This document shows, piece by piece, positions 2,098 through 30,198 of a DNA stretch of 40,280 nt. The position numbers and the translations under genes were made by a program. The notes beneath the pieces are model-generated. The model was not told where the DNA came from, did not search any database, and saw nothing but the letters and a program-made list of their open reading frames with translations. This stretch comes from a virus (taxonomy: Duplodnaviria > Caudoviricetes): positions 1-40,280 of IMG/VR virus record IMGVR_UViG_3300007562_000007; one strand, 5' to 3'. Within the stretch, counting starts at the first letter, position 1. Each line of letters opens with the position of its first letter.

Positions 2098-2167
2098 AGT
2101 GTGCCTCCGTAAGATACCTATCTATCTGATATCATATAAGATACCCATTTTTCCGCATGGATACCTT

Positions 2168-2201: not shown

Positions 2202-2270
2202 TAGGGATAGTTATAATAACAACTAATGGATAGTGATACTCTGGAATGAAATCCCAGGGCAGCACCGAAG

Positions 2271-2289
2271 GGGTTAATTTAACGGGCTT
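2271..2289 (-). repeat. 19-bp intergenic repeat copy 1 (candidate phage RNAP promoter/regulatory site)
   Basis: GGGTTAATTTAACGGGCTT, identical to 30180-30198. Confidence 0.8.
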
Positions 2290-2438
2290 CTTGTGTGAAC
2301 GTAATGCACCATTCTTATCAAAATTAATTTGTTCAATAACACAAACTTTTTGCAGGCACACTTGTCACGGTTGTCCACCCCATGAGTGTCGTATCAGCCA
2401 CCCGAAATTCTGTCACTGTCCACACCCTACGCCAAAGT

Positions 2439-2885
2439 TCAGGCCAAGTCGTACACCGCCAACGATCCTACTCGCGCCCAACCAGCCTTCTCCAAGATTC
2501 TGGTGAATGTGTTGTTTTCGTCTTGATTGCTTCCTGTGGACAAGACATATCTGATTTTCCTCAATTCAGCTTCTTCCAGCAAAGCGTCATGTAGCATCAC
2601 AACTGCCTTAAATGCTTTAGAACCTTTAAAATCTGAACCATAATAAACTTGTTGCATTACCTGTCCTTTAACAAAATCTTTTTGTGTGACTATTGCCAAC
2701 AACCAAGCCATTATCACTCCATCCACTTCCAGCACTCTCATGAAAGCGTTGTTGGTCACGTAACGCCTGATTGCTTTGATTGCAGTCTCTCTGTCAGAAG
2801 GTATTAAATCTTCCCTGTTGTATTTGATGTAAAGATCTACACATGTCCCCAATTCTTCTTTATTCTTAATTTTTCTTACAAGCAT
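2439..2885 (-). CDS. GNAT-fold acetyltransferase-like protein
   Basis: VLEVDGVIMAWLL strand, DFKGSKA loop, and C-terminal ILEKAGWARVG resembling GNAT motif B; GGAG SD. Confidence 0.6.
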   Translation of the reverse strand: MLVRKIKNKEELGTCVDLYIKYNREDLIPSDRETAIKAIRRYVTNNAFMRVLEVDGVIMAWLLAIVTQKDFVKGQVMQQVYYGSDFKGSKAFKAVVMLHDALLEEAELRKIRYVLSTGSNQDENNTFTRILEKAGWARVGSLAVYDLA

Positions 2886-2895
2886 ATATTCTCCA

Positions 2896-2923
2896 AAATA
2901 AAACCCCTACAATTTGGTAGGGG
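2896..2923 (-). terminator. probable intrinsic terminator
   Basis: CCCCTAC/GTAGGGG 7-bp stem followed on the minus strand by TTTTATTT. Confidence 0.7.
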
Positions 2924-2931
2924 ATACTTTA

Positions 2932-3162
2932 TTACTTAGAACTGTTCATGTGAGCGACCACGAGTTCGATCAAAAGATTCAAAGCGAATCCCAAGATGCC
3001 GTAGCCGATTTGAATGAACATTTCTTTTGCTTTGTCGAACTTTTCAGAACCACTCAGCTCTGAGTTTTCAACGGTCTTTACCACTTCTCTCATTGCAGCT
3101 ACAGGAGCGCCACCGTAACAGAATTTGGCAAATCTGTCGATCACAAAAGGAACTAACTTCAT
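2932..3162 (-). CDS. small membrane-associated protein, holin-like
   Basis: ATG 3162 with AAGGA SD; SGSEKFDKAK segment then hydrophobic C-terminal helix (IGYGILGFALNLLIELVV). Confidence 0.55.
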   Translation of the reverse strand: MKLVPFVIDRFAKFCYGGAPVAAMREVVKTVENSELSGSEKFDKAKEMFIQIGYGILGFALNLLIELVVAHMNSSK

Positions 3163-3317
3163 ATACAATCCTTACATTTTATTTTAAACACAAAACCATC
3201 CAGTACGGTAGGTACGTTTGAAGTTTCTGTTTCATATTCCAACAAGGGTACAATTGAGTAACTCAAATTGGAACATGAAGAAATCACAAATACACAACCG
3301 ATTAATATGTATCTCAC
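3159..3317 (-). CDS. 52-aa lipoprotein, spanin candidate (not in ORF track)
   Basis: GTG start overlapping the upstream stop; MRYILIGCVFVISSC lipobox-like signal; its stop overlaps the next ATG (ATGA). Confidence 0.6.
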   Translation of the reverse strand: MRYILIGCVFVISSCSNLSYSIVPLLEYETETSNVPTVLDGFVFKIKCKDCI

Positions 3318-3586
3318 TTTGGTTTAACACCAACTTTCGAAGATGTTATTGTCGTGAGTACATTGTTCACTATTGCCACAACAGCAGCAATACCCATACC
3401 TGCAGCTTGAAGTGTTTCATCGTCCACATGTATTTCATAACCAAAACCGTTTGCAATGACGGCACATGCAGTGAGTACGGCAATTACGCCATTACCTGCA
3501 TTTTGTCTGTTCTTCCAAACCTTGGAATTGGTCAATTCTTTACCTTCTTGAAATAAAGTGAAGAAGGCTTTAAACTCTGCAATCAT
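3314..3586 (-). CDS. holin-like two-transmembrane protein
   Basis: two hydrophobic helices (GVIAVLTACAVIANGFG; GMGIAAVVAIVNNVLT) and basic tail TSSKVGVKPK; AGGAG SD before ATG 3586. Confidence 0.65.
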   Translation of the reverse strand: MIAEFKAFFTLFQEGKELTNSKVWKNRQNAGNGVIAVLTACAVIANGFGYEIHVDDETLQAAGMGIAAVVAIVNNVLTTITSSKVGVKPK

Positions 3587-3594
3587 AGATTCTC

Positions 3595-3903
3595 CTAGTT
3601 GCAATTGAACACAGTTCTTACCGGTTTTGAGTTCTTACTGTTACAAGTAGCCGCACAACCTTGAGGAGTTGTTTCCCACTTATCTTTCTCTCTACTTGCT
3701 TTGACAGACTGATACTGCATGTTTCCAACAATATCTAAACCGCCACAACTCAAAGCACAAACGTGATCCACAATGTAGCCTGGTCTACCGTGAGGATAAC
3801 CTTGTTGTTTGTCAAATTGGCGTTTCACACTTGTTGATCTGCAAGCAGCCGAAGCTGAGAAAGTAAAGGAAAGCATCAAAATAAAAATAATATATCTCAT
3901 CAC
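3595..3903 (-). CDS. HNH endonuclease-like protein with N-terminal signal peptide
   Basis: GYIVDHVCALSCGGLDIVGNMQYQ...KD HNH core; MMRYIIFILMLSFTFSASA Sec signal. Confidence 0.75.
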   Translation of the reverse strand: MMRYIIFILMLSFTFSASAACRSTSVKRQFDKQQGYPHGRPGYIVDHVCALSCGGLDIVGNMQYQSVKASREKDKWETTPQGCAATCNSKNSKPVRTVFNCN

Positions 3904-4166
3904 ATTACCGGATTGGTTGTCACATACATCCCTGTGTCTTTAGTGTCGGCCTTTTCCTTGCCTATCTTCTTACCGGCTTTGAAAGCCTTATGTAAGTATC
4001 TATTCAGTAGAGTTTCAAAATCTACTTTTGCGGATTCTAATGCTTTATTCATTTCTTCGACATTGGGATACGTTTTGCTTGCAGCATCTGTGGCAATGTA
4101 GTAAAGCTTATCCAAAGCTTCATCTGAAATTACCGCAGCATGCTTAATCTTAATATCAGTGGCCAT
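3900..4166 (-). CDS. hypothetical protein
   Basis: 88-aa ORF overlapping both neighbours, AAGGA SD. Confidence 0.7.
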   Translation of the reverse strand: MATDIKIKHAAVISDEALDKLYYIATDAASKTYPNVEEMNKALESAKVDFETLLNRYLHKAFKAGKKIGKEKADTKDTGMYVTTNPVM

Positions 4167-4524
4167 AAATCTTCCTTAAATATTTCACTAATGATTTCAA
4201 AAATTCTTGGCCTTTATCTTCTTGCAAATACAAGGCTATATTGTTCCCTAAACTGTTTAAACACTTAGGATCCAACAACCAAGCACTATCATCTTCAGAT
4301 AAGGCACTTCCTAAAACTTGCAGCAGAGTCACTTGTTTTGGTTGAGCACTCACTGAAGCAATTTTCCTTTCAACTGCATCATTGATCATTCTTTCTATAT
4401 CGACAGCTTCACTTTTAGGAGGCTCTGTGCGCGCCATAGGCACTTTTAAAGCAGATATAGTGTTTTTGCTTGCATTCAATTCAGCAAGTTGTTTTTGCAA
4501 TTGTTCCAATGAGGGCTCTTCCAT
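4156..4524 (-). CDS. hypothetical protein with N-terminal coiled coil
   Basis: 122-aa ORF, GGAG SD, helical content. Confidence 0.75.
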   Translation of the reverse strand: MEEPSLEQLQKQLAELNASKNTISALKVPMARTEPPKSEAVDIERMINDAVERKIASVSAQPKQVTLLQVLGSALSEDDSAWLLDPKCLNSLGNNIALYLQEDKGQEFLKSLVKYLRKIYGH

Positions 4525-4528
4525 TCTT

Positions 4529-4810
4529 TTACTCCGTACGTTTAATTTCTTTCAATCCATTTCTTCTGTGACCATGAGAGCTTCCATGTGACGTTCCTTC
4601 ATCATTATTCCCGCTTCCATTACCATTTCCTTTGATTTCTTCGTCGTCATCATCGTGATCGTCATCACAATCATTTTCAACGGTCTCATCATTGTCATCA
4701 GACTCCTCTTCATCATCTGAACTATCCGTAGTTTCAGAATCGTCATCTCCACCATCTTCGTCCTGAATCACAGTGGTGATGTAAATATCGTCAATGCTTA
4801 CTGAGGGGAT
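4529..4810 (-). CDS. highly acidic low-complexity reading frame, in frame with the upstream gene (possible readthrough extension)
   Basis: open from 4810 (immediately after TGA 4811-4813) to TAA 4529; D/E-rich; no SD before GTG 4771. Confidence 0.5.
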   Translation of the reverse strand: MPSVSIDDIYITTVIQDEDGGDDDSETTDSSDDEEESDDNDETVENDCDDDHDDDDEEIKGNGNGSGNNDEGTSHGSSHGHRRNGLKEIKRTE

Positions 4811-5602
4811 TCAGGAAACACGTGTATTGGCTGCAGTTTGGCTATTGCCAGACACAGTACCACTACCGATGTTCAAAACACCCTGAGTAACTCTTTGCTC
4901 TGCAATCAATTGCTGTAACAAAGAATTGGTCAAAATACCTTGTTGTTGCTGTTGTTGCTGCAATTGGTTTTGATTGATATTATTCGTAACAGTCACACCG
5001 CTTGCAGATACTGCGCGCTCATTCAACAGCTCTGTGATTCTATTTTCTGCAATCACAATTTGTCTGTTTAAGTTTGCGGTTTCAATCGATTGAATTAAAG
5101 CTCTTGTCTTATCACCATCATTAGTAACTACTTGTGCCAATTCAAACTTAGTTTCCATTAAATTTGTATTGACTTGGTTCAGTTGTTGCATCAACATGAC
5201 AGAGTTTGCGGAAGCCGAATCTTTGGCTTGAGTAACAGTGTTTGTCAAAGCAGCAGCTACGCCACTAACTTGATTTTGAAGTATGCCTGTTTGAGCAGCA
5301 TTGTTGGCAACCATGGCTTCAGAACCTACGGCCACAGCTTGTTTAATGTCACCAATTCCTGACATGATAGACATATTTGCTTGTGGTTGTGCAGGGCTAT
5401 CCCAGCCTCTGTTGTTTCCATCAAAACCATTACCATTGTTGAATAATAGTCTGCCCAATAAAGCACCCATTACAAACTGTGATCCACCTTGATCGCCACC
5501 TAATAAATTAGACATACTGCCTCCTGCAATTGCTGATTGTAATAAAGAGTTTAAATCCAGTCCACCCATAGGGCTTCCTGTACCGCTAGCATCCACTGCC
5601 AT
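4811..5602 (-). CDS. G/N/Q-rich coiled-coil protein of unknown function (start moved to ATG 5602)
   Basis: AGGAG SD before MAVDASG; GG-rich N-terminus, DGDKTRALI helix, poly-Q tract. Confidence 0.8.
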   Translation of the reverse strand: MAVDASGTGSPMGGLDLNSLLQSAIAGGSMSNLLGGDQGGSQFVMGALLGRLLFNNGNGFDGNNRGWDSPAQPQANMSIMSGIGDIKQAVAVGSEAMVANNAAQTGILQNQVSGVAAALTNTVTQAKDSASANSVMLMQQLNQVNTNLMETKFELAQVVTNDGDKTRALIQSIETANLNRQIVIAENRITELLNERAVSASGVTVTNNINQNQLQQQQQQQGILTNSLLQQLIAEQRVTQGVLNIGSGTVSGNSQTAANTRVS

Positions 5603-5615
5603 ACGATTTCTCCTG

Positions 5616-5664
5616 AAAAATGCCCAGAGAGTGCTGGGCACACTTTAGGGAATCATTCCCTAAA
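5616..5664 (-). terminator. tandem hairpins ending the tail operon
   Basis: TTTAGGGAAT-C-ATTCCCTAAA palindrome (5644-5664), then TGCCCAG/CTGGGCA stem (5621-5640) with TTTTT on the minus strand. Confidence 0.65.
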
Positions 5665-5666
5665 AC

Positions 5667-6197
5667 TTACAAAGGAGCGATTGTAGCTTCAAAAGTTGAA
5701 ATCACTGTATCCATTTCAATTTCTAAAGATAAAGTATCAATCTCCGCTTTACTACTGTTTGCTAAAGCACGAATATTGTCTATCCATGCTCGCATTGTTA
5801 ACACTTCTTGGGAATCTGGTCCAAAATCATAAGGTTTATTTATTTGGTCATATATAGGATATACATATGATATCTTATAACTGGCAATACCATTGATCTT
5901 ATTCTTTTTAGAATTTCTCAACAGTACCAAATAATCGCCTGGATTTTCCCAAGCACATATCTCTGAATTCCAAACTTGAAATTCATTAGAACGTGGAATA
6001 TGATAACCAATGGCATTATCACTGTAATGATATGTATTGATTATCGTATTGTTATCCACGTCTTCTTCCAATATCTTAACTATAAGATTGTTCGGTAGAA
6101 GTTCACCATCTGAATATTTAATATTCTCTGGATTTAAAAATTCACCAATAGATACTGGAAGTTTACTTAATAAATCAAATGTAATAACTTTACTCAT
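5667..6197 (-). CDS. tail fibre assembly/chaperone-like protein
   Basis: position after tail tip genes; C-terminal KI...YPIYDQIN...MRAWIDNIRALANSSKAEIDTL pattern typical of fibre-associated chaperones. Confidence 0.5.
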   Translation of the reverse strand: MSKVITFDLLSKLPVSIGEFLNPENIKYSDGELLPNNLIVKILEEDVDNNTIINTYHYSDNAIGYHIPRSNEFQVWNSEICAWENPGDYLVLLRNSKKNKINGIASYKISYVYPIYDQINKPYDFGPDSQEVLTMRAWIDNIRALANSSKAEIDTLSLEIEMDTVISTFEATIAPL

Positions 6198-6199
6198 AA

Positions 6200-6805
6200 T
6201 TAGCCTTGTATTATAACAACATGATTGTTTACAGCTCTAGTATAATTTCCAGAACCACCTGGCCCAACAACAATACTTGTTTGTGTAAAACTGAAAGTAT
6301 TTCCTGTAAAATACGCAGTCATCATAAACGCATTTGTATTTCCATTTAAAGTTTTATTGTAAGTAGCCATGCCTAAAGAGCTGATTAGTATGTAATAATT
6401 TCTGTTTGGTTTTGTAGCTATCATTGGTGCAGAATATGGGCCAAGATCATTGTGCCAAAGTACATCTTGATTAAAAGCAATGGCAGGATATGATAATGCA
6501 CTATCAAATATTAGTATATCGCTACCATTTCTAATTAACATTCCGTAGCCAATATTGGCTATACCAGTAGGGTTAACAGGAACAAGTCTTACACGAGTTA
6601 TTGTGCCACCGTCGGTAGTATACACATTATTGGTTTTAGGATTTTTATAAATCCCAGCAGCTGTGTTGGTCGCCCTAACTGCATATTCACCAGTAATGAT
6701 TGTACCATTTGGAACTACAGTCTTTTCAATATACATTACAGAATTATTTGAGAAAGTTAAAACACCCTGCTCATTATACATATTTAAACCAAATGTCATA
6801 ATCAA
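6200..6805 (-). CDS. minor tail tip protein
   Basis: two FG/YG-L-x-x-x-N-x-x-G-x-L-x-F repeats (MTFGLNMYNEQGVLTFS; YGMLIRNGSDILIFDS) typical of genes downstream of J-like tips. Confidence 0.7.
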   Translation of the reverse strand: MIMTFGLNMYNEQGVLTFSNNSVMYIEKTVVPNGTIITGEYAVRATNTAAGIYKNPKTNNVYTTDGGTITRVRLVPVNPTGIANIGYGMLIRNGSDILIFDSALSYPAIAFNQDVLWHNDLGPYSAPMIATKPNRNYYILISSLGMATYNKTLNGNTNAFMMTAYFTGNTFSFTQTSIVVGPGGSGNYTRAVNNHVVIIQG

Positions 6806-7239
6806 TACTCATATAAATCTAATGTAAAATATCCAGCAGAAGTTGTATCACCAGATGGATAGATATCTGGAAAACCTCCTAAGTAGATCCTCAACGTATT
6901 ACCATTGAGGATTGTAAAGGAGTCGTTGGTCATACGAGCTGTTTGTGATGGAACTCCAACATAGACTAAATAGAAGTGAGATACAGCAACTGGAATAATA
7001 CCAATGATATTAGTATCATTAGTTATATAAGATGTTACATCTAAATCAAAAACAGAATATGTAGTATATTCATTATTCCTACTTGTATCGGTTACTGCAG
7101 TCAATCCTGAATATAACCAATTATAACCAACTCCTGGATAACCTATATAAGTAGTACTACTTATGAATTTAAATATTCTATCGGAACTGTCTAAGTTCAG
7201 GTTACCGTTAGAATCTCTCAATTGAAAACCCATTGTCAT
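6802..7239 (-). CDS. minor tail tip protein
   Basis: MGFQLRDSNGNLNLDSSDR N-terminus; translationally coupled to the tip gene. Confidence 0.7.
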   Translation of the reverse strand: MTMGFQLRDSNGNLNLDSSDRIFKFISSTTYIGYPGVGYNWLYSGLTAVTDTSRNNEYTTYSVFDLDVTSYITNDTNIIGIIPVAVSHFYLVYVGVPSQTARMTNDSFTILNGNTLRIYLGGFPDIYPSGDTTSAGYFTLDLYEY

Positions 7240-10200
7240 GCTGATAGATCTCCAATATGAATCCTAACTACACCGGAAGCATCATATACCTTAATGGCTC
7301 TACCGGTCATTTCCATTCTAGCGCCTGTCAATGCGGTTTTAACATCAAAGTTATCTGTTCCAACTAAAGCCAAACTACCAATTTGGGCAGCTCCAATTGC
7401 AGCATTTCCAATGTAAGTTGATACATTTGTTTCTGTGATTGAGCCTGAAAGATTACTTGTTGTTGAAGTGAAGTACTTCATTGTCACAGAATTTATACCA
7501 CTGTATCCATTAACAAATGAGCTGTCAAAATAGAATGTAAGATTCAAAGCTATACTTACAGTACGTAACACCACTCCATTTTTCTTATATTTCAAAACTC
7601 CTGCCAAATAGTATATTTCCAAAACATCCGTAGTTGTATAAGTACTGGAAAATCCAGCAACTTGTGTACCACTTTCATAAATATATAATCCACCGCCAGG
7701 AACCATATAAAAAGCATGATCAAGTCCTGTATAACTGGCATTCAAAGCAGGGTCTGTATTTAAACCTGCCATTGTATATGAATACAAATTATTGGCTTTA
7801 AAAGTTACAATAATCCCATTTGTATAGAATTGATTAGATATTGCTTGAGTATCCCATGCTGGAGTTGGATAAGTTCCAAAAGAAGCACTTGTTATTGAAG
7901 AGTTTGCAGAGTATAACAATTCTTTCAGATAATAAGCTCTTCCTGTAGGAATATCTGTGTAATGAAAAACAGATCCATTTTTCTTATAATATACAATACC
8001 ACCACTCACATCTACTTCAAATACATCTGTTGCTATATAAGTTGTACTTGGAGCGCCTGAGATTATTGCAGCATCTTTCATCGGATAAACACTACCGTTT
8101 GAAGACGCATAGAATCCAGTCTCCAATGTGTAATCAGGTCTTTCATAACCTATCTGAATATAGTCAATGGCACAACTTTCACCTATTGATTGTACAAAGT
8201 CAAACCTCAATTGTGTTATATTTCCACCAAATACATAATCAGAATCTATATTTCTCATATCAAGAATTATATCAGTCCATGCACCTGCTGTAGGCGTCGG
8301 CATATAGATAAACTGTCTGATCAAAGCGGCTTCACCATGCAATGGATTTGTGAAGTATAAGGCACCTTCCCAAACGCTACCTACAGTGAGTTTTGCTCTT
8401 ATCTTTATGATATAATTGTCGTATGGATTATAAGATAATGAAGTTAGTCTTAAGAATTGATCGCCAGCTGCGTTTGTAAATAATGTGGAAACACCGCTAT
8501 CATTTGTCGATACAGTACCTGCAAATGTTGTATTTGTAAGTAAAGCACCTGAAAAATCATAGGTGTAATTTGCCACAAAATCTATTGTCGCCAATCCAGC
8601 AATCCTATTGGTACTGTCAGCAGGAAATGAAAATTTAGCCGCACAATAATCAACATACGATTGCAATGACAAAGCTTTCTTATCCCAATCACCAGTTTGA
8701 TATGTACCAAATTGAATATTGGACAAAACACTATTAAGTACAAAACCGCTATAATGTAGATAAAAAGAACGCCCAGCAGTTGTTGCTGAAATTCTTACTA
8801 CAACACCATTTTTCTTATAGTACACATTTGAACCATAATATTCAACTTCCACTACATCGGTGGCTACGTAAGTTCCATATATACCTACTTGAGTACCATT
8901 CTCATATACTTGAAAAGCGCCTGATGCCAAATAGATAGCATAGTCAATACCACTATAAGTAGCCGTCGGGATCGCGTCACTGTTCAAACCTATCATTTGG
9001 TTTGAAGTTGTATCTGATGAAGCTCTTACTGCACAACCGCCTGTATAGCTTTGACTGCTGTATGCACCACTATCCCAAACAGAAGTTGTTCCACCAGTTT
9101 TAGTGATGGTATTTCCACTGATTGTTGTATTTGCAATATTGTTTAAAGTCAAAGTACTAGGTACAAGAGTTAAATTTGCAGGTCTAACTGCGGCACCGCC
9201 CGTAAAGGTTATGGCAGTTGGAGTATATCCGGAAGGCATATTGTAAGTACCAAATTGGATACCTGTCAACCCTCTACCACTAGTATAAATTGAACTGTCA
9301 AACCAAAAATTTCTTCCTACAATTGTATTTACACAACGAATTACAACACCATTCTTACGATAGATGACAACACAGTTAGTGTATTCTACTTCAAACACAT
9401 CTGATGGTAAATATGTACCAGTCACACCTGTAGACACATTACTTTCATATAACACAAAAGTATTTGCAGCTTGGAATATCACTTCATAGTCAATACTTGT
9501 ATGCGAAGCATCTGTCAATGGATCCGAGTTTAAACCAAATGCAGCATCTGTTGCAGCGGCACTTACAGAAGCTCTTACGGCACAACCACCTTGATAATAT
9601 TGAGTAGAATATGCTTGAGTATCCCATGCAGCTGTAGCTCCAGGTTTACTTGTTGAGTTTGCATTTATTGTTGCATTACCAGCTAAGGTTAAAGTACCTG
9701 CAGTGAATGTCCTATCTGTAAATGTACCCATTCTCAGGTTTTTGACCGTTGTATTTGGAGTGGCCAAAGAAATATCTAAGAAGAAAGTACGTCCAGCAGT
9801 AGTACCTACTGATCTAACAATTTGATTATTACGTCTGTAAGTTATATTTGAACCAACATACTCTACTCTAAACGTATCGAGCATTCCATATGCACCGGCA
9901 ATTTGAGTACCAACACTAGATTCATAAGCGTATACATTATTTGCGCTGTTGACATGAAATGCGTAGTCAAGACCTGTGTATGTGGCATCCAATGCAGGAT
10001 CCGTGTTTAGCGATACCATTATATCTTGAGCAATAGCATCTACTTGATATTCAATATAGCAGTTATTCGTAAATGACTGGGATGAATAAGCTTGAGTATC
10101 CCACGCATTTGCTCCAGCTACTTTGTAAATATTGTATACATAATCTACACCTTTACTTACTGTCGTACCGGCAACTGTGGCATCACCAGCCAATGTTAGA

Positions 10201-16745: not shown

Positions 16746-17413
16746 TATACTTTACCCCATTTGAGTGTTATTGCGCCTGAGCCTTCATATATTTGATCGC
16801 AGCTCGAATCATTCGCATTTACTTGTCTAATATAATCCCTACTAAGGAATATAGATTTTTTTCTATCCAAATTCCTCATAGGACTTGAACCTGTTAGTTG
16901 TAATAATGCTTCACCAATCTCGTTAGTCTTGATGGAATAATTTACACCATCTATTCTACCTTTATAAACAAGAATAGTATCTACGAGTTCTAAGTAAGGA
17001 GCATAAGTATCAACATTCACAAAGCCTAAACGACCTTCTATGGTGAGGCCGACTAAATTAGCATTTGTATTTGCCAATTGTGTAAAACTATTATTTGTTA
17101 AAGTGATCTTACCTGTATTGGCATCAACTTGTGGTGCTGTCGAATACAAATCACTACATGCTATAACGGCTCTATATTGTTCTCTATCAACGTTTGTGTT
17201 CAGTTGAGGAGGATCTACTGACATAATAGAACCATCAGAATAATAAAAATGTGTTGCTACAGCTACGCCTGAACTTAATAATTGCACGTCAGTTGCGTAG
17301 GTTGTACTTGCATACATCACTGTGTTATCATAATTTAAGATACGAAGCATATAAAATGCCTCGATAGTATCTCTTGCCAAAGCTGTTTGAATATTAGAAC
17401 TGAATGTTAACAT
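16745..17413 (-). CDS. baseplate hub / minor tail protein
   Basis: between Dit and tip; YKGRIDG and C-terminal LKWG motifs of siphovirus hub proteins. Confidence 0.7.
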   Translation of the reverse strand: MLTFSSNIQTALARDTIEAFYMLRILNYDNTVMYASTTYATDVQLLSSGVAVATHFYYSDGSIMSVDPPQLNTNVDREQYRAVIACSDLYSTAPQVDANTGKITLTNNSFTQLANTNANLVGLTIEGRLGFVNVDTYAPYLELVDTILVYKGRIDGVNYSIKTNEIGEALLQLTGSSPMRNLDRKKSIFLSRDYIRQVNANDSSCDQIYEGSGAITLKWGKV

Positions 17414-18045
17414 TAAACTGCCTCTATTAACTTTATTGTACCATTATCCATCAGTATACCATCTTCGAATACCATACCCTTGACAGAGTCTGTGTCATAT
17501 TTGACGAGCATCTGAACATCTTCTTGATAGGTTACAGTATTACCGGCAGCTAAAGCTGTTCTCAATGCTGGATAAATATTCAATGTAACTGTGTTCAAAG
17601 TGCCTGACAATGTAGCATCACTTGTTGTCATATAAACTTTAGAGTGATTACTGAATTTGATGAATGTACCTTTTGGAATTACTTTAGCGTTATTTACAGC
17701 GTTTGCTGAAATAGTCACTGATGTTAAATTTGCAGCTGTTGCCGCGAATACTGTTACTGTACCTGTTGCCGTTTTAGCCATGACAGATCCAACATTTTGT
17801 GGAGTCAATATCGTTAATGTGCTAGAGCTACCCTTAGTTATAAAATCTACCATTAGATCTTGAGCAGAAGCGGTAAGGGGAAATAGACGAGTCTCTATTT
17901 CCCACCGTTGTGCAGCTCTTCTATAAGTATTTCTTTTTAAAGAAAGGGTATCTGATACAAAAATAGGCTGATTACTTCTAAGTGTTAACGGGCTAACAAA
18001 TTGAGCAATTACAGTACTTGTTGATGTATTGTAGATACCATACAT
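17413..18045 (-). CDS. distal tail protein (Dit, T5 pb9-like)
   Basis: directly after TMP; AAQRWEI, GTFIKFSNHSKVY and IYPALR motifs. Confidence 0.75.
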   Translation of the reverse strand: MYGIYNTSTSTVIAQFVSPLTLRSNQPIFVSDTLSLKRNTYRRAAQRWEIETRLFPLTASAQDLMVDFITKGSSSTLTILTPQNVGSVMAKTATGTVTVFAATAANLTSVTISANAVNNAKVIPKGTFIKFSNHSKVYMTTSDATLSGTLNTVTLNIYPALRTALAAGNTVTYQEDVQMLVKYDTDSVKGMVFEDGILMDNGTIKLIEAV

Positions 18046-18047
18046 AA

Positions 18048-24080: not shown

Positions 24081-24086
24081 ACCTTG

Positions 24087-24116
24087 AAAAAAAGCCTAAA
24101 GCAAAAAGCTTCAGGC
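24087..24116 (-). terminator. intrinsic terminator upstream of tape measure gene
   Basis: GCCTGAAGC-TTTTT-GCTTTAGGC followed by T7 on the minus strand. Confidence 0.75.
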
Positions 24117-24446
24117 ATCATTGATTATTTGAACTTCAACTATAGTTCCAATAGGGCTTCCATATTTCAATGCAGTCCTCTCCACAAAGTAACGTGGAGC
24201 CTGTTTAGATGAGCCTTGATTTAAATATTGTATATAATCTGTAGTATTTCTTATTTCTGTTACGCTATTGATTTTACGTATTTCCCACGAATCTCTAGCG
24301 TTACCTGTATCAACAGGTGTTTCTTCTTTTAATTCTGCAAGTAATTTTTTGTTTATTACAGAACTTTGTTTTTCAACTTCAGAGTCAACTTGAAGTTTTA
24401 AATCTTGAAATGCTTTCTTTACATCGACAAGTTTGATCTTGATCAT
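24111..24446 (-). CDS. HK97 gp10-like tail completion/neck protein
   Basis: TPVDTGNARDSW and YIQYLNQGSSKQAPRYFVE motifs. Confidence 0.85.
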   Translation of the reverse strand: MIKIKLVDVKKAFQDLKLQVDSEVEKQSSVINKKLLAELKEETPVDTGNARDSWEIRKINSVTEIRNTTDYIQYLNQGSSKQAPRYFVERTALKYGSPIGTIVEVQIINDA

Positions 24447-24784
24447 AGGTTTAACTTATCGCCTCCTACCGCTGTCATCATCTTGCTAAATATTCCTGAA
24501 CTTTTTAGATTTTGCAATGAGATTTTACCGTCTTCATTTTGAACAGTTTTCTTATTATTGTATATGGCATCTAATGATCCAAATATAGTCCAAGGTTTTT
24601 CTTTTACACCTTGAGTTTGTAATACTTTAAATGTACGATCATCACTACGCCAGTCTACAGGTCTTCTTTCAAAGTAATGGAACCAACCCAACAGCTCATC
24701 GTAAGGCATTTCTTTCAATAATTTATAAATTGGAATTTTAAGATGAAATGCTATTTCATAAATAGATAACATTTCATCATCCAA
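24443..24784 (-). CDS. tail assembly chaperone C-terminal (gpT-like) segment, expressed by -1 frameshift
   Basis: in the -1 frame behind a GGGAAAG slippery site; EIAFHL...EMPYDELLGW pattern of gpT-like regions. Confidence 0.85.
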   Translation of the reverse strand: MDDEMLSIYEIAFHLKIPIYKLLKEMPYDELLGWFHYFERRPVDWRSDDRTFKVLQTQGVKEKPWTIFGSLDAIYNNKKTVQNEDGKISLQNLKSSGIFSKMMTAVGGDKLNL

Positions 24785-24786
24785 TT

Positions 24787-25092
24787 CTACTTTCCCGCCT
24801 CTTGGCCTATGCCGGAAAATTTCATAATTTCATTGGAAAGTTTTGTCAACTCGTCCATAGGAAATGTATCAAAATCTTGATCAGAAAGATCTTCTCCACC
24901 ATCTACGGCAGAACGAATTACTGTGCGTAAAACATCAAAACTGGCTTCTTCATTACCTTCAATGCCTTTAGCTTTCTCTTGGATTTCCAAAACTTCTGAA
25001 ACACTAAGTTTAGAAATCTTAATATCTTCACCCATGAATTTAACCGATTTGGTCATTTTACGACCAACTAAGCTTTTGATACCTTCTGCCAT
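24787..25092 (-). CDS. tail assembly chaperone (gpG-like)
   Basis: AAGGA SD before MAEGIK at 25092; lies between tail tube and TMP; ends in the slippery site. Confidence 0.85.
   Translation of the reverse strand: MAEGIKSLVGRKMTKSVKFMGEDIKISKLSVSEVLEIQEKAKGIEGNEEASFDVLRTVIRSAVDGGEDLSDQDFDTFPMDELTKLSNEIMKFSGIGQEAGK
24790..24796 (-). promoter_or_regulatory. programmed -1 ribosomal frameshift site GGGAAAG
   Basis: minus strand GCG GGA AAG TAG; the -1 frame reads GTA GAA TTG GAT into the next ORF; same heptamer as lambda G-T. Confidence 0.85.
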
Positions 25093-25093
25093 T

Positions 25094-25330
25094 TTATTGT
25101 CCTTTGAAATCTTCGGAATGTTGAGCTTGGAAGTCATCCAACTGTTTCCTCATTGTATGTAAAACTGAAAGTGTTTTGAACACTTCCTCTGATTTTTCTC
25201 TATTGCCATCAAACTCAGCAACTCTTGCAAATGTTTTGCGGATACTGATGTCGATTGACTTTCTCATATGCTTAGCCGTTACGCGTAACACATAACTGGC
25301 ACTAAACGGTTTTTGATTGATATCTTCCAT
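25094..25330 (-). CDS. hypothetical helical protein
   Basis: 78-aa ORF with AGGT SD, abutting the chaperone gene. Confidence 0.75.
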   Translation of the reverse strand: MEDINQKPFSASYVLRVTAKHMRKSIDISIRKTFARVAEFDGNREKSEEVFKTLSVLHTMRKQLDDFQAQHSEDFKGQ

Positions 25331-25344
25331 ATAATACCTAAATA

Positions 25345-25497
25345 TTATGAAAGCTTATGTAATGTACCGCAGACTGTGCATTTAGCGTGTTTCTTTTGGT
25401 TATGGTTACATACTCTCATATTTTTGCCATATTTTTTATCTTGATAATTGGCACTTGGTGTATCTGTGCAATTACATTTTATGATTGATAAAGACAT
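25345..25497 (-). CDS. 50-aa Zn-ribbon-like protein (not in ORF track)
   Basis: GAGG SD; MSLSIIKCNCTDTPSANYQDKKYGKNMRVCNHNQKKHAKCTVCGTLHKLS with CxC and CxxC. Confidence 0.75.
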   Translation of the reverse strand: MSLSIIKCNCTDTPSANYQDKKYGKNMRVCNHNQKKHAKCTVCGTLHKLS

Positions 25498-25512
25498 AAT
25501 AAGCCTCATTGT

Positions 25513-25539
25513 AAAAGTTGGGTGGCTGTTACACCACCC
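25513..25539 (-). terminator. probable terminator after tail tube genes
   Basis: GGGTGG/CCACCC stem with a short T-run. Confidence 0.55.
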
Positions 25540-25547
25540 GTTATTAA

Positions 25548-26336
25548 TTATACAGTATAAGCACCGTAGAAATCAGATTGAACTGAAATTGTCAAGGTGG
25601 CAGTGTTTGCATCTGTCAATTGAGGATTGATCAATAAAGATTCAACTTTACCGTACCAATACCATAAACTGTTGGATACTTCGCCAATACCTACAGAAGT
25701 AATTACACCAGCACCTGTTGCAGGAGGAGTACCACCTGTAAAGCCAGTTGCATCAAAAGTAATTACACCAGTACCTGTGTTGATTGTAGTTACTCTACCA
25801 TATTTAGTGGTAGGAGTTGCAGTATTGACTAAAACTTGGCCTACTTCAACAGAAGCTGCTTGCGCAACAGAAGTTACACTTGTAGCTGTAGAAGCTGTAG
25901 GAGTAATAGCAATACCTGAACTATAATTTACAGGTTGAGAATTTAACAATGCAAATCTAAAACCATATTGAACACCATTACCGACAGAAGCACCTAACAA
26001 TGTACCAGAAGCCCAATCGCTAGGTACATAGTTGAGTGTCAATTCGATTGTAGGCGCATCAGCTTGGCCTTGAACTTGACGAGAAGTTTTAGAGCCATAC
26101 TGGGCTACTTGTACGATATTTGCAGGAGTGCCGATTGAAGGAAACTCTCTAACATTTTGTACACGTACATAAGTATTTGCAGCCTTGGTGCCACTTGTTG
26201 TGATTTCATCTAAGAACAATGCTTGCCATTCAGCTGCGGTATCAATACCTGCACTTGAAAAAGTATAGTCTGTCAACGGAAATGCAACAGCCAAATCAGT
26301 AAACAGTCCAGCACCAATTGAAGAGATATGAGCCAT
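25548..26336 (-). CDS. tail tube protein paralogue 2, with inserted beta-rich domain
   Basis: VREFPSIGTPANIV...GQADAPTIELTLNYVP tail-tube motif; roughly 65-aa T/V/G-rich insertion relative to paralogue 1. Confidence 0.85.
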   Translation of the reverse strand: MAHISSIGAGLFTDLAVAFPLTDYTFSSAGIDTAAEWQALFLDEITTSGTKAANTYVRVQNVREFPSIGTPANIVQVAQYGSKTSRQVQGQADAPTIELTLNYVPSDWASGTLLGASVGNGVQYGFRFALLNSQPVNYSSGIAITPTASTATSVTSVAQAASVEVGQVLVNTATPTTKYGRVTTINTGTGVITFDATGFTGGTPPATGAGVITSVGIGEVSNSLWYWYGKVESLLINPQLTDANTATLTISVQSDFYGAYTV

Positions 26337-26346
26337 AAATTACCCC

Positions 26347-26949
26347 TTAAATTGTGTAAGAACCATAAAAGTCTGATTGTACAGAAATGGTTAAAGTGGC
26401 TGTGTTGGCATCAGTCAATTGTGGATTGATCAATAAAGATTCCAATTTACCTACCCAGAACCATTGGCTATTTTCTTTTGTGCCTAAGCCTGCAACCAAT
26501 GAGCCGTAAGCTGTAGGTTGTGCATTTAAAAGCGCAAAACGAATCGGGTATTGATTGCCATCGGCAACTTTCTTACCCAATACACTTGTAGATGACCAGT
26601 CATTTGGTACATAGTTCAATGTAATTTCGATTGTAGGCGCATCAGCTTGGCCTTGAACTTGACGAGAAGTTTTAGAACCATATTGAGCAACTTGAACAAT
26701 ATTGGCTGGAGTACCAATTGAAGGAAATTCACGAACGTTTTGAATACGTACGAATTGACCAACTGCTGCGGCTACAGTGCCATTTGCGGCTACTTCAGAA
26801 CCACAAAAAGGGCCTGTGGTAATATTTAACCATGTTGCAGAGCTATTGAAAGCTGCAAGTTCGGCTGAAGTCCAAGTACCGTCTCCAGTCTTGACTCCCA
26901 CAGCCAGATCGGTGTATAAACCTGCACCGATTGAAGAAATGTGTGCCAT
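26347..26949 (-). CDS. tail tube (major tail) protein paralogue 1
   Basis: same motifs; follows the tail terminator gene. Confidence 0.85.
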   Translation of the reverse strand: MAHISSIGAGLYTDLAVGVKTGDGTWTSAELAAFNSSATWLNITTGPFCGSEVAANGTVAAAVGQFVRIQNVREFPSIGTPANIVQVAQYGSKTSRQVQGQADAPTIEITLNYVPNDWSSTSVLGKKVADGNQYPIRFALLNAQPTAYGSLVAGLGTKENSQWFWVGKLESLLINPQLTDANTATLTISVQSDFYGSYTI

Positions 26950-27357
26950 TTAATCGACTCCGAAAAAATTAAAAGGTATTGTATATTTTGCTCTAAATAG
27001 AGATTTATTGTCAGTGTCTATTCCAACAAAATCCAAAGAACTTAACGAAAATTGAGTTATAACTCCTGTTCGTACTTCTAAGGATTTACCCACTAAATAA
27101 GCATCCAATTTATCTGCTATAAAGTTAGATCGTTGAGGACCAATACCTGCAGATGTAAATATGTCTATAATCAAAATACCTGATACAGACGCAGTATTTA
27201 AACCTGTACTGCTCGGAATTACAGAGAGTCTAATGAACTCACCGTCAATAGTACTTGCGGTGAAATTCATAGGAACTGTTTTTATATTTTCATTTTTCCA
27301 TGTCTGTCTATCAAACACAGAAAATACAGAGTTTTGTAAGTCTGTAAATTTACCCAT
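26950..27357 (-). CDS. tail terminator-like protein
   Basis: position; GILIIDIFTSAGIG...IADKLD...YTIPF pattern. Confidence 0.7.
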   Translation of the reverse strand: MGKFTDLQNSVFSVFDRQTWKNENIKTVPMNFTASTIDGEFIRLSVIPSSTGLNTASVSGILIIDIFTSAGIGPQRSNFIADKLDAYLVGKSLEVRTGVITQFSLSSLDFVGIDTDNKSLFRAKYTIPFNFFGVD

Positions 27358-27709
27358 TTGAAGTTTCCCTCACAACATTGAACAACGATATATAACCATC
27401 GTCCAGTATGCTTTCAGTTATCTTCCAAGTCTCATTGTTGTATACAATAGAATCAAATAGAGATAGTGAACCAATAGCTTCAGTATTAGTTAAAATTTCC
27501 ATTGTTTTGACGTTTCTATCTTTAGAACCTGTTTTCTTTTTAACCACAATAATTTTATTTGTTATTGTTTCAGAAGTACTTGTTGCCAAGCCGGTTCCAA
27601 AATTGAAATCTGAAGAAGTTTTCTTAACAAAGTCCACTTCTTCAGCAAGATCTTTTAACAATTTTAAAGCTAAGTTTAAATTTGAATTTATCAGTCCTTT
27701 ATAGCTCAT
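27350..27709 (-). CDS. head closure (stopper)-like protein
   Basis: position after the adaptor; beta-rich 119 aa. Confidence 0.65.
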   Translation of the reverse strand: MSYKGLINSNLNLALKLLKDLAEEVDFVKKTSSDFNFGTGLATSTSETITNKIIVVKKKTGSKDRNVKTMEILTNTEAIGSLSLFDSIVYNNETWKITESILDDGYISLFNVVRETSNG

Positions 27710-28179
27710 TAGTTAGCTCTCCACCATCCATTACCGGAATTTACCAATAAAGGGTTGATATATTGCTTAACCACATTCGGCAATAAGCTGGGCTTTCTTA
27801 CACGAGAGAGTTTAATTGAACCGACTTCCAAATCTATTACACTACCTGTATCATCAAGCAAACCCTCATTAGTCAATAAATGGTTTGCCAACTCGAATGT
27901 TGCTTTTTCAATCCTAGAAGGAACTCCAGATAAAGCAACTGAAGTTCCAAGTCTAGGATCGAAGTAAGAACCAACTCTAGGGAAAGCTAGTGCTTGTGTT
28001 TCACTTATGGCAACACCTACCCAACGCATGTTATCTAATAACATAGTGGCTGTAACTAGGGCATTTACCTTCATTGAATTATCAGCACTAGCCCAACCAC
28101 TAGCATCTAGCCTATTGTCAAAATAAGAATTACATTCAGCAACTGTAACATACGAATTTGTACCTTTACTGAGTGCCAT
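27709..28179 (-). CDS. head-tail adaptor
   Basis: NSYVTVAE...YF, ALVTAT, QALAFPR and VPSRIEKATFELA motifs; directly after the capsid gene. Confidence 0.85.
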   Translation of the reverse strand: MALSKGTNSYVTVAECNSYFDNRLDASGWASADNSMKVNALVTATMLLDNMRWVGVAISETQALAFPRVGSYFDPRLGTSVALSGVPSRIEKATFELANHLLTNEGLLDDTGSVIDLEVGSIKLSRVRKPSLLPNVVKQYINPLLVNSGNGWWRAN

Positions 28180-28191
28180 AAGTATTCCTTA

Positions 28192-29379
28192 TTAAGAGTG
28201 GAATACTGGTAGAATACCCAGAGACAAAGCAGAAGCAGATTTACGGATCCAAGAACCAGTAGTAGAAGCTAAACTTGCAGAAACAACAGTTGTCAATTCT
28301 TTTGGTGTACCGCCTTCTACTGCATAAGCATACTCAGCATCTGAAGGGAATTTATCAGCAGAACCAGCCCAGTTGTAACCGGCAGGAGCCAATACATAAC
28401 CCCAACGATACCAGATGTCGGTAGAACCACCGCCGTTATAGGTGTTGGCATTACGGAAGATTTCAACTGACTCAGGAACAGTCAAAGGTTGCATAGCAAT
28501 TGCGCCTGGTAATACAATAAAGCTGGTTTTAGTACCAACAATATCAACACCTGCGCCAGTGTTCAATTTTGTCAATTCAGCAGAACTTAAGCTTTGTGAA
28601 GCACGAGTTTGGATCAAACGGAATTTACCGTTGAAGATAGTTTCAAATTGAACGTTACCTTCGGTCAATACAACGTTGTTGATCAAGTTAGCTGAACGGA
28701 AAGATGACATTACCTCTGGAGAAGTAATCAAATATGCCCACTCTGGCTCACGATCTTTAAATGCTTTACCGAAAGCTTGTAAGAAACCTTCAGCACGAGC
28801 TGAACCTTGAACAGCAGCGGTTGCAGCGATTACAGGGGCATTTGCACCTAAATCAACATAGAAACCATAAGCTTTATCTGAAGGGTCATTTGAGAATGTT
28901 TGACCACCTAGACCAGTGCTACCAGAAGCAGCGGCGCAACCATTCAATGCTTCAGAAATGGCAACACCTTTTAAGATAGCCATCAAAGCATTGTGTTCGT
29001 CTTGCGCACGAGTTTCAGCAAAATCACGGCTAATTTTGGCCAAACCGTCTTGTTGGGTAACGATTTGTTGCATGTTAACTTTAGACGCACCATGAGTACG
29101 TACTGATTTAACATATGTTAAGTAATCGCTTGAATAACTGGTTTTAGAACCATCGGTTGCAGTTGTTAAAGAAGCAACGTTAATTACTGGGTTAAGAGGT
29201 TTGAACCATCTTACTTGACCTACGAATGTTTCGGTGTTTGGATCAATGTTTGGGTTTGAGCTTACAATGCCTGTGCCAACCAATTTTCTTGCGGTAGTGT
29301 AGGCTTCATCTGAGTATGCAGAAATGGTTTCTTGCAATACAAAGTTAGATGCGCCTGATACGTTAGTGCGAACTGTCAT
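28192..29379 (-). CDS. major capsid protein
   Basis: 395 aa; position between scaffold and adaptor; FRNANTYNGGGSTDIWYRWGYVLAPAGYNW C-terminal capsid-like motif. Confidence 0.85.
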   Translation of the reverse strand: MTVRTNVSGASNFVLQETISAYSDEAYTTARKLVGTGIVSSNPNIDPNTETFVGQVRWFKPLNPVINVASLTTATDGSKTSYSSDYLTYVKSVRTHGASKVNMQQIVTQQDGLAKISRDFAETRAQDEHNALMAILKGVAISEALNGCAAASGSTGLGGQTFSNDPSDKAYGFYVDLGANAPVIAATAAVQGSARAEGFLQAFGKAFKDREPEWAYLITSPEVMSSFRSANLINNVVLTEGNVQFETIFNGKFRLIQTRASQSLSSAELTKLNTGAGVDIVGTKTSFIVLPGAIAMQPLTVPESVEIFRNANTYNGGGSTDIWYRWGYVLAPAGYNWAGSADKFPSDAEYAYAVEGGTPKELTTVVSASLASTTGSWIRKSASALSLGILPVFHS

Positions 29380-29418
29380 TTAAATAGTCCTTGAAATTTA
29401 ATAAATAAAACAAGAGAA

Positions 29419-30075
29419 TTAAGATTTTCTTAATTTACCTTCTTGAGCTAATTTTAACACTTCTTCCTGAGACATTTCGAATAATGACTTAGGTGTTGAA
29501 GAAGTACTTGTTGAACTTTCAGAACTACCTGAACCACTAGATGTTTTTGCTTTGAACAAAAAGGAATTATCGTCGTTTTCAGAGAAAACTTTCACGAAAT
29601 CAGAAATTGAGATTCCAGATTTATGAACCCACAAACCCTTATCATCTTGTACAAGTTGGTCAACAACTTCTTTACGAGCCATTTCAATAGCTTTGTCGCT
29701 TCGAAATGTATACTTTGATAGCTCGGTACGTACTTCCAGATCTCTGGTAAGTTCGATGTTCCGTTTCTCCAATGCTTCTCTTTTAGCTTTTTCTTCTGCC
29801 AATTGCAGTTCATAAGCTTCTTTGTGTTTACCTTCGTCTTGTAACCGTTTTAATTCAGCTTCTTTTTCTTTTTGTTCGTATTCAGCAAGCTTTTTAAGAG
29901 TTTCGTCTCTAGTGCCATAGGCTTTATCTAGTTTAGATTTAATGTCTTTCAAACTTTCTTCTAGTCGTTCTTTAACAATTTTTTCTACGATTTCACTATC
30001 AACGGTAGCACTGCTTGTTGTGTTTTTTGATTCATCGTCAGAAATATTGTTTTGTTCATCAGTATTTGTTGTCAT
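29419..30075 (-). CDS. capsid scaffolding protein
   Basis: acidic N-terminus, E/K coiled coil, FLFK then S/G/T linker and short C-terminal helix; upstream of capsid. Confidence 0.85.
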   Translation of the reverse strand: MTTNTDEQNNISDDESKNTTSSATVDSEIVEKIVKERLEESLKDIKSKLDKAYGTRDETLKKLAEYEQKEKEAELKRLQDEGKHKEAYELQLAEEKAKREALEKRNIELTRDLEVRTELSKYTFRSDKAIEMARKEVVDQLVQDDKGLWVHKSGISISDFVKVFSENDDNSFLFKAKTSSGSGSSESSTSTSSTPKSLFEMSQEEVLKLAQEGKLRKS

Positions 30076-30086
30076 TTTTATTACCT

Positions 30087-30179
30087 TGAGTACAACTCAT
30101 TATTTTGTAATTTAAAGATACAATCTTTATATTGGAATTAATTAGTATAATGTTGTAATCTCTTACACTACTATTATAC
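30087..30179 (-). promoter_or_regulatory. structured 5' leader of the scaffold gene (three hairpins)
   Basis: TGAG-TACAA-CTCA (30087-30099), TAAAGA-TACAA-TCTTTA (30113-30129) and GTATAAT...ATTATAC (30145-30179). Confidence 0.55.
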
Positions 30180-30198
30180 GGGTTAATTTAACGGGCTT
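30180..30198 (-). repeat. 19-bp intergenic repeat copy 2 (candidate phage RNAP promoter/regulatory site)
   Basis: GGGTTAATTTAACGGGCTT, identical to 2271-2289; begins 2 nt after the RNAP stop codon. Confidence 0.8.

What the first reader, a model, noticed from the sequence alone, without database searches (positions are those of the whole stretch)
2271..30198. Exact 19-bp repeat in two intergenic regions 28 kb apart: candidate promoter or control site for the MuF-RNAP
Seen: GGGTTAATTTAACGGGCTT occurs at 2271-2289 and 30180-30198 in the same orientation (sense AAGCCCGTTAAATTAACCC). It has an internal dyad GTTAA-N-TTAAC flanked by C/G runs. One copy starts 2 nt after the RNAP stop and leads into scaffold/capsid; the other lies in the large non-coding gap ahead of the hydrolase gene. 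Both are followed closely by a long imperfect hairpin. Known: single-subunit phage RNAPs use highly conserved ~20-bp promoters. The motif does not resemble the T7 consensus. Inference: cognate promoter; alternatives are an operator, antitermination site or processing site.
Basis: partly seen in the sequence, partly recalled or inferred. Interest (0 to 1): 0.85.

Follow-up and report, generated by a model that had tools for sequence, protein, structure and literature searches.

The report
Promoter for a phage's second polymerase

Summary
Confirmed: two exact copies, none expected by chance. The window is about 58% of a Naomiviridae-like siphophage. Relatives carry the core A-M-CCCGTT-AAA-TTAA-CCC, mostly 3-8 times per near-complete genome: 83 matches on the coding strand against 1 opposite, mostly intergenic, at five syntenic sites. 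That is the layout of T7/T3-type promoters. The dyad looks incidental: no compensatory change in 149 sites, DNA hairpin near 0 kcal/mol. All 23 near-complete relatives encode a second T7-type polymerase (RNAP2), missing from this fragment. It is the likelier reader (about 0.6). The motif precedes replication, terminase and capsid genes; a different motif (GCG..GTATCTTATATGA, twice in the window) precedes the early genes and RNAP2. One nested relative lost the motif together with 12 residues of RNAP2's specificity loop, while keeping the MuF-RNAP loop. Predicted +1 is A/C at 30183-30182 and 2274-2273. No transcript data were available. No held paper describes it. The scan reached the same reading earlier on other DNA (e1-6078368, e1-5853831).

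The parts
30180..30198 (-). Motif 1, copy B (after the MuF-RNAP stop, before scaffold/capsid/tail genes); conserved core 30180-30197
   Evidence: same site in 16 of 18 records mapped
2271..2289 (-). Motif 1, copy C (end of the late region, ahead of the early region)
   Evidence: same site in 15 of 18 records (absent from G017 and DSS3_VP1, degenerate in G007)
30182..30183 (-). Predicted transcription start of copy B (A, or the first C of CCC); inferred
   Evidence: excess RNA pairing begins at the first C; CCC is swapped for TGAT in all four copies of G028
2273..2274 (-). Predicted transcription start of copy C; inferred
   Evidence: same register as copy B
30145..30179 (-). Hairpin starting at the first base after CCC (predicted 5'-terminal mRNA hairpin)
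   Evidence: z -3.3; hairpins of different sequence at this place in relatives
30113..30129 (-). Distal NGT-triloop hairpin of the scaffold leader (separate RNA element)
30087..30099 (-). Proximal NGT-triloop hairpin abutting the scaffold Shine-Dalgarno
2164..2270 (-). Three-hairpin non-coding stretch between copy C and the first motif-2 site; the last hairpin is followed by a T-rich run (terminator-like)
   Evidence: z -4.65; no Rfam match in the window
2132..2157 (-). Motif 2, copy 1 (YGCG-A-rich-GTATCTTATATGA), candidate early promoter before the hydrolase gene
310..335 (-). Motif 2, copy 2
30201..34877 (-). MuF (residues ~1-370) fused to a T7-family RNA polymerase; candidate virion enzyme
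   Evidence: Pfam PF04233 and PF00940; model pLDDT 89; Foldseek hits are T7 and mitochondrial RNAPs
29419..30075 (-). Head scaffolding protein, first gene after copy B
   Evidence: phrog_206
28192..29379 (-). Major capsid protein
   Evidence: phrog_247
1681..2097 (-). Cell-wall hydrolase, first gene after copy C and motif 2
   Evidence: PF07486

Best explanation
The repeat is a conserved, one-directional DNA signal that is likely a middle/late promoter, most likely read by a second, free-standing T7-type RNA polymerase (RNAP2, about 750 aa) that is predicted to be encoded just beyond the left end of this partial genome. Proposed working (inferred): early genes, including RNAP2, are first transcribed from motif 2, probably by the MuF-RNAP brought in with the virion. 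RNAP2 then binds motif 1 as double-stranded DNA, with its specificity loop (which carries a 12-residue insertion) reading the CCCGTT block. It melts the TTAA and starts at the A or C that follows, making RNAs that begin with a hairpin. The five sites would drive the SSB/DNA-polymerase block, a post-replication block, the terminase-portal-MuF-RNAP block, the scaffold-capsid-tail block (copy B), and in several relatives a lysis cassette (copy C). In this phage copy C has no gene before motif 2; it would give a short structured RNA or re-transcribe the early region.
For: Shown: 83 matches on the coding strand vs 1 opposite in 24 records (21 with a match); the reversed control pattern gave 16 over both strands. 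66 of 77 coding-strand matches are intergenic where about 12% of DNA is non-coding. Five fixed sites; site D precedes a gp2.5-like SSB, site C precedes an endolysin in G010. T3 phi9 sits in the same place, at the previous stop before the scaffold gene. RNAP2 is in 23 of 23 near-complete relatives (12 chosen by MuF-RNAP, 11 by RNAP2), and is a T7 homologue (E 1e-43). Motif 2 lies 2-3 times upstream of RNAP2. G017 is complete and nested in the clade in both trees. It has no motif-1 site scoring above 6 bits, keeps motif 2, and has an RNAP2 loop segment of 61 aa instead of 73-74, while its MuF-RNAP loop stays 78 aa. The four RNAP2 columns (of 284) that best track motif variants all lie in the loop insertion; the best has 3 of 5 vs 0 of 41, nominal p 7e-4. 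G011 changed two motif positions in both copies while its MuF-RNAP loop differs from G001's by one residue in the hairpin. DSS3_VP1 has a T7-length RNAP2 loop and an SP6-like repeat at sites A, D and E. Sense-only excess pairing starts at CCC (+0.127, nominal p 6e-7; antisense +0.008, p 0.61; 171 sites).
Against: No transcript, binding or in vitro data. RNAP2 is not seen in this phage: a near-identical contig (L376) extends 2 kb further and ends about 1 kb short by synteny with G001. The G017 loss is one event, on a branch that is long in both polymerases, and no replacement motif was found. G027 has a 73-aa loop but no motif 1 (22-kb fragment, RNAP2 44% identical), as does L343. The loop covariation does not survive Bonferroni over 284 columns and rests on 5 variant rows; in the matching MuF scan, 3 of the 8 best columns also fall in its loop (p 0.02-0.04). 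G028's CCC-to-TGAT swap comes with an ordinary RNAP2 loop but a slightly changed MuF loop. The predicted start has no GGG, unlike T3 and SP6. DSS3_VP1's promoter matches motif 1 better reversed (12/19; p 0.02 mononucleotide, 0.06-0.10 dinucleotide shuffles) than forward.
Confidence: 0.6

Rival explanations
1. Promoter of the MuF-RNAP: the fused enzyme, injected or newly made, reads motif 1, and motif 2 is read by RNAP2 or by host sigma-70 RNAP.
For: The fusion keeps the catalytic motifs and a beta-hairpin at the specificity-loop position. Every near-complete motif-bearing record also has it. Copy C lies upstream of the early region and RNAP2. Motif 2 has a loose -35/-10 look (TTGCGG-16-TATGAT). 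Some MuF loop columns track motif variants weakly.
Against: G017 keeps the MuF loop and motif 2 but lost motif 1. G011 changed the motif with a nearly unchanged MuF hairpin. Four of five sites serve genes needed after RNAP2 is made, including the MuF-RNAP's own operon. If RNAP2 read motif 2, it would have to transcribe its own gene first.
Confidence: 0.17
2. Binding site for a dimeric phage regulator (operator or activator) acting on another polymerase, or an N4-type template-strand hairpin promoter.
For: Perfect 5-bp dyad GTTAA-N-TTAAC; variation is concentrated at the centre.
Against: 0 compensatory changes in 149 sites; 30 left-arm-only vs 8 right-arm-only changes. A symmetric operator would not need one orientation (83:1). 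The stem folds at -0.1 to -0.5 kcal/mol. The commonest change at motif position 5 is A to G (13 of 171), which would break a template-strand stem. N4 early promoters keep a stable hairpin with variable but paired stems (PMC4496689, passages).
Confidence: 0.08
3. RNA-level or replication/packaging signal: a sequence-specific pause, terminator or processing site leaving a 5' hairpin, or a priming site like T7 phiOL/phiOR.
For: Often 4-11 nt after a stop codon. Tandem pairs 85-156 nt apart with AT-rich spacers in G008, G012, G013 and G014. A C-rich element follows many A and C copies.
Against: No U-tract and no stable fold in the motif. Stopping before scaffold/capsid or SSB genes makes little sense. 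A promoter role can include priming, so this adds to the best reading more than it replaces it.
Confidence: 0.1
4. A T7-type promoter pointing against the genes (GGGTTAATTTAAC|GGG), making antisense RNA.
For: Gives a GGG start; 12/19 match to the DSS3_VP1 promoter in this orientation.
Against: The match is marginal against dinucleotide shuffles (p 0.06-0.10). There is no excess RNA structure on that side (p 0.61). In G028 the block that would be -13 to -11 is replaced in every copy without an RNAP2 loop change. The late genes would then have no visible promoter.
Confidence: 0.05

Closest known systems
T3/T7/SP6 class II-III promoters (-17 to +6) of Autographiviridae single-subunit RNAPs
   Same: About 18-bp conserved block, many co-oriented intergenic copies, one at the previous stop before the scaffold gene as T3 phi9, AT-rich block before the predicted start, and a T7-homologous candidate enzyme.
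   Different: Different sequence with an internal dyad; no G-run at the predicted start; siphophage host genome; candidate enzyme about 750 aa with a 12-residue loop insertion; a second phage RNAP and a second motif in the same genome.
DSS3_VP1 (Naomiviridae, Noahvirus) SP6-like repeat TAGG-K-K-R-CG-Y-TAAA|G (found here)
   Same: Same gene set (MuF-RNAP plus RNAP2), same sites A, D and E, 5' hairpin from the start, shared CGTTAAA, related motif 2 (GCATCTATAATGA).
   Different: 15 copies; canonical SP6-like layout with G start; T7-length loop (61 aa); no copy between MuF-RNAP and scaffold. It is not experimentally mapped either: DSS3_VP1 is listed under 'others' in the supplement of PMC11880802.
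Coliphage N4 relay: vRNAP hairpin promoters and RNAPII middle promoters (Schitoviridae)
   Same: Two phage T7-family RNAPs, one probably virion-borne, and a small second enzyme for later genes.
   Different: No stable hairpin; RNAP2 is one chain, not a gp15/gp16 heterodimer; motif 1 also precedes late genes, which N4 leaves to host RNAP (PMC7145618, PMC4496689, passages); no N4 vRNAP among the Foldseek rows shown for the MuF-RNAP model.

Membership tests
T7-family dsDNA promoter | Several near-identical copies per genome, co-oriented with the genes and intergenic | tested here: met
   83:1 strand bias; 66 of 77 intergenic
T7-family dsDNA promoter | Conserved span of about -17 to +6: binding block, then an AT-rich melting block | tested here: inconclusive
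   18-bp conserved span A-M-CCCGTT-AAA-TTAA-CCC fits about -15 to +3/+4, but +1 is inferred
T7-family dsDNA promoter | Purine-rich (G) start | tested here: inconclusive
   Sense start would be A (then CCC) or C; U or A in G028; no G-run
T7-family dsDNA promoter | Cognate single-subunit RNAP with a specificity loop in the genome | tested here: met
   RNAP2 in 23 of 23 near-complete relatives; MuF-RNAP in the window; RNAP2 itself lies outside this 58%-complete record
T7-family dsDNA promoter | Factor-independent initiation by that RNAP | not testable with these tools
   needs in vitro transcription
N4 vRNAP hairpin promoter | Stable template-strand hairpin with variable but paired stem | tested here: not met
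   -0.5 kcal/mol, z about 0; 0 compensatory changes in 149 sites
N4 vRNAP hairpin promoter | Confined to the early end of the genome | tested here: not met
   sites before replication, terminase and capsid genes
Palindromic operator of a dimeric regulator | Symmetric conservation and free orientation | tested here: not met
   asymmetric flanks and changes; one orientation
Host sigma-70 promoter | -35/-10 hexamers at 16-18 bp | tested here: not met
   no minus-strand site listed at either copy; hits across both regions at chance level
Known structured RNA family | Rfam match | tested here: not met
   0 matches at gathering threshold in the window

The most novel reading that the evidence does not exclude
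A widespread siphophage clade runs its whole cycle on two single-subunit polymerases of its own, with no host RNAP at any stage: a portal-docked MuF-RNAP fires the GTATCTTATATGA early promoters, and a compact RNAP2 with an extended specificity loop reads A-M-CCCGTT-AAA-TTAA and starts RNA on a pyrimidine (C, or U in G028). That would be an orthogonal T7-family system with a non-G start and a promoter-reading mode not yet described.
Probability: 0.25. Interest if true: 0.78.

Novelty: new variant of a known kind. Interest (0 to 1): 0.52.

Why it matters
It supplies an exact, testable promoter for an undescribed two-polymerase phage clade (at least 476 related MuF-RNAP proteins). Two synthetic genes and two short templates would show which enzyme reads which motif, and so whether the MuF fusion acts as a virion-delivered early polymerase. 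A roughly 750-aa T7-family RNAP with a promoter unlike T7, T3 or SP6, and possibly a non-G start, is a candidate orthogonal tool for in vitro transcription. Natural variants (G017, G028, G048, G011) give ready-made specificity mutants. The kind of element is textbook, and the scan had already noted it in other genomes.

Tried and rejected
RNA evidence: no RNA holder listed for 29400-34877, so no reads were laid. Finding the rest of this phage: one metagenome contig (L376, 16 differences in 10,070 nt) added 2 kb with a third motif-2 copy but no RNAP2; two viral-contig scans found nothing. A search for more G017-like phages returned only G017; no replacement dispersed motif was found in G017, G027 or G029. 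Pelagibacter phage Kolga (RNAP2 homologue at 27%, MuF without polymerase) showed no repeated promoter-like 12-mer, so it did not help assign the enzyme. Single-sequence fold of the MuF-RNAP failed (pLDDT 36); the alignment-based one worked. phmmer of that domain against PDB gave 0 hits. The VIA-align comparison could not be run, so a weaker likeness to N4 vRNAP is not excluded. T3-register reading (AATTAACCCT as -17 to -8, +1 nine bases after CCC) was rejected: nothing is conserved downstream, pairing starts at CCC, and G028 replaces CCC throughout. Small ORFs over copy C (2122-2361 minus, 2246-2506 plus) have no Pfam or PHROG match and are taken as spurious. No complex prediction was sent, since the question is protein-DNA.
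Full report
Observation. The 19-mer is at 2271-2289 and 30180-30198, exact and co-oriented. There is no third copy within 3 mismatches, and shuffles give 0.02 matches; a weight-matrix scan also finds only these two. All genes nearby are on the minus strand, so the sense reading is AAGCCCGTTAAATTAACCC. Copy B sits 2 nt after the stop of a 1558-aa MuF + T7-type RNAP fusion and before scaffold and capsid genes. Copy C sits after the last late gene and before a cell-wall hydrolase.

Context. The closest named relatives are EBPR siphovirus 1 (58% identity) and the Naomiviridae DSS3_VP1/PM1 (29%). IMG/VR gave 75 loci at 63-100%. The window record is rated 58% complete.

Conservation. In 24 records searched, 21 had the core. 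Matches were 83 on the MuF-RNAP strand and 1 opposite; a reversed control pattern gave 16 over both strands. In 26 further records, 10 of 11 near-complete ones matched. In 18 records mapped in full, 66 of 77 coding-strand matches were intergenic, with about 12% of DNA non-coding; the looser pattern used there also gave 8 opposite-strand matches. The sites are syntenic: A before the terminase block, B before scaffold, C before the early region, D after a second RNAP gene and before a gp2.5-like SSB and DNA polymerase, E after the replication block. Over 171 de-duplicated sites (405 raw) the conserved span is A-M-C-C-C-G-T-T-(A-A-A)-T-T-A-A-C-C-C, with the three central bases most variable and nothing conserved beyond. 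T3 phi9 occupies the same place as site B. I take 'promoter of a phage RNAP' at about 0.8.

The dyad. Among 149 sites collected with a symmetric rule there was no compensatory change; 30 changes were left-arm only and 8 right-arm only. The stem folds at -0.1 to -0.5 kcal/mol as DNA. N4 early promoters keep stable hairpins with variable paired stems (PMC4496689, passages). So neither an operator nor an N4-type hairpin is supported, though near-invariant columns give this test little power.

Direction and start (inferred). RNA read in the sense direction pairs more than shuffled controls from the first C of CCC onward (+0.127 at positions 13-16, nominal p 6e-7, mononucleotide shuffles, sites not independent); the antisense side shows nothing (p 0.61). 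In many copies CCC pairs with a downstream GGG, or a hairpin starts right after it. The complete genome G028 carries four copies with the left part through TTAA (one with a single change) followed by TGAT instead of CCC. So CCC behaves as exchangeable, initially transcribed sequence, and +1 is probably the last A or first C (30183-30182; 2274-2273). Two results point elsewhere. The DSS3_VP1 promoter matches motif 1 best in reverse (12/19; p 0.02 to 0.10 depending on the shuffle). Ten bases match T3 phi10 in a register that would move +1 nine bases on.

Which enzyme. All 23 near-complete relatives encode a second, roughly 750-aa T7-type RNAP (12 were picked through the MuF-RNAP, 11 through RNAP2), homologous to T7 RNAP at E 1e-43. 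It is absent from the window; a near-identical contig extends 2 kb further and stops about 1 kb short of where G001 has it. A second motif, YGCG-A-rich-GTATCTTATATGA, stands 2-3 times upstream of RNAP2 and twice in the window (2132-2157, 310-335). It is almost invariant over 111 sites (selected at up to 1 mismatch), in records from 33 to 61% GC, and related to a DSS3_VP1 repeat. The simplest order is motif 2 for early genes (virion MuF-RNAP, or host RNAP) and motif 1 for everything after RNAP2 is made.

Three natural contrasts agree. (1) G017 is nested among motif-bearing phages in both trees (support 95/99 and 97; the RNAP2 tree is the quick version, C-terminal 235-330 residues only). It lost motif 1, kept motif 2, and has an RNAP2 loop segment of 61 aa rather than 73-74, with the MuF-RNAP segment unchanged at 78. 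T7's segment is 61 aa (counted). (2) Among 46 distinct RNAP2 sequences with a scored site, 5 have only variant CCGTT blocks, and the top four associated columns of 284 lie in the loop insertion (best 3/5 vs 0/41, nominal p 7e-4). Loci without a site above threshold, among them G009's, were left out. The same scan on 32 MuF-RNAPs had its two best columns outside the loop. In T7-like RNAPs this loop is the region that covaries with the promoter (PMC11880802, passages). (3) G011 changed two positions in both copies with a MuF hairpin one residue from G001's.

Against the assignment: G017 is one event on a long branch, with no replacement motif found. G027 and L343 have long loops without motif 1, though both are fragments. 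The covariation fails a Bonferroni correction. The MuF-RNAP also has a loop hairpin and co-occurs with the motif everywhere. I give RNAP2 0.6 and the MuF-RNAP 0.17.

The fused enzyme. An alignment-based model (112 sequences, pLDDT 89) matches T7 and mitochondrial RNAPs (best E 8.5e-18); N4 vRNAP is not among the rows shown. Packaging in the virion is inferred from the MuF domain, not shown.

Literature. Eight searches found no paper with either motif string or with MuF plus single-subunit RNAP. Term searches of the main texts of PMC8323127, PMC12669031 and PMC12697855 found no mention of RNA polymerase. The PMC8323127 supplement labels gp28 only as 'minor head protein-like'. The PMC11880802 supplement lists DSS3_VP1 under 'others'; that file was cut when stored, so its candidate repeats for this phage were not seen and may include the SP6-like motif. 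I saw passages only, also for PMC7145618, PMC4496689 and bioRxiv 10.1101/2025.10.29.685362 (whose supplements are closed). Most subscription papers are not in the library. The likeness of the scaffold-leader hairpins to the P22 scaffold operator, and of tandem sites to T7 origins, is recalled and comes from no call.

Earlier scan notes. My reading was recorded before the first look-up. Notes on other genomes report a similar motif and the same assignment; these are unchecked AI notes, not independent evidence. What I tested here beyond their listed text: the G017 loss, the G028 swap, the loop covariation and the direction test.

Verdict. Interest 0.52.

Noticed in passing
window 30087-30129 (minus); scaffold leaders of relatives: Twin hairpins with an NGT triloop just before the scaffold Shine-Dalgarno: two or more in 37 of 40 distinct leaders vs 0.35% of shuffles, with compensatory stem changes; also in DSS3_VP1 (two) and Pelagibacter phage Kolga (one). 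Candidate translational operator for scaffold or capsid protein, older than motif 1.
   Followed up: partly
window 2132-2157 and 310-335 (minus); L376 near 1276: Motif 2 (YGCG-A-rich-GTATCTTATATGA), near-invariant candidate early promoter, probably the MuF-RNAP's own.
   Followed up: partly
window 2164-2270 (minus): About 110 nt of strong structure (z -4.65) between copy C and motif 2, ending in a terminator-like hairpin; possible small RNA or insulator. In several relatives a lysis cassette follows copy C instead.
   Followed up: partly
G017 (L260-L263): Complete relative with intact RNAP2 catalytic motifs but a shortened specificity loop, no motif 1 and no detectable replacement; it has 132-bp tandem repeats at the record ends. 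How its late genes are transcribed is unexplained.
   Followed up: partly
MN602266 (L077, L291): DSS3_VP1 carries 15 coding-strand copies of an SP6-like promoter, most followed by a hairpin from +1, and three copies of a motif-2 relative; a cultured test system.
   Followed up: partly
sites A, C and first-of-pair B in relatives (e.g. G006, G008, G012, G013): A C-rich element (GACG/GCCG-Y-CCCCT) 3-5 nt after CCC followed by AT-rich DNA, and tandem motif pairs 85-156 nt apart; G-rich instead in EBPR siphovirus 1. Possible replication or packaging role.
   Followed up: no
window 25548-26336 and 26347-26949: Two adjacent major-tail-protein paralogues sharing 79-84% DNA identity in two blocks.
   Followed up: no
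window 282-1160 (minus): HNH-like ORF (phrog_2255) in the early region whose 3' end contains motif-2 copy 2.
   Followed up: no
G001, G009, G013, G038, G041, G042 and others: Both polymerase genes are often interrupted by insertions (introns or inteins by appearance).
   Followed up: no
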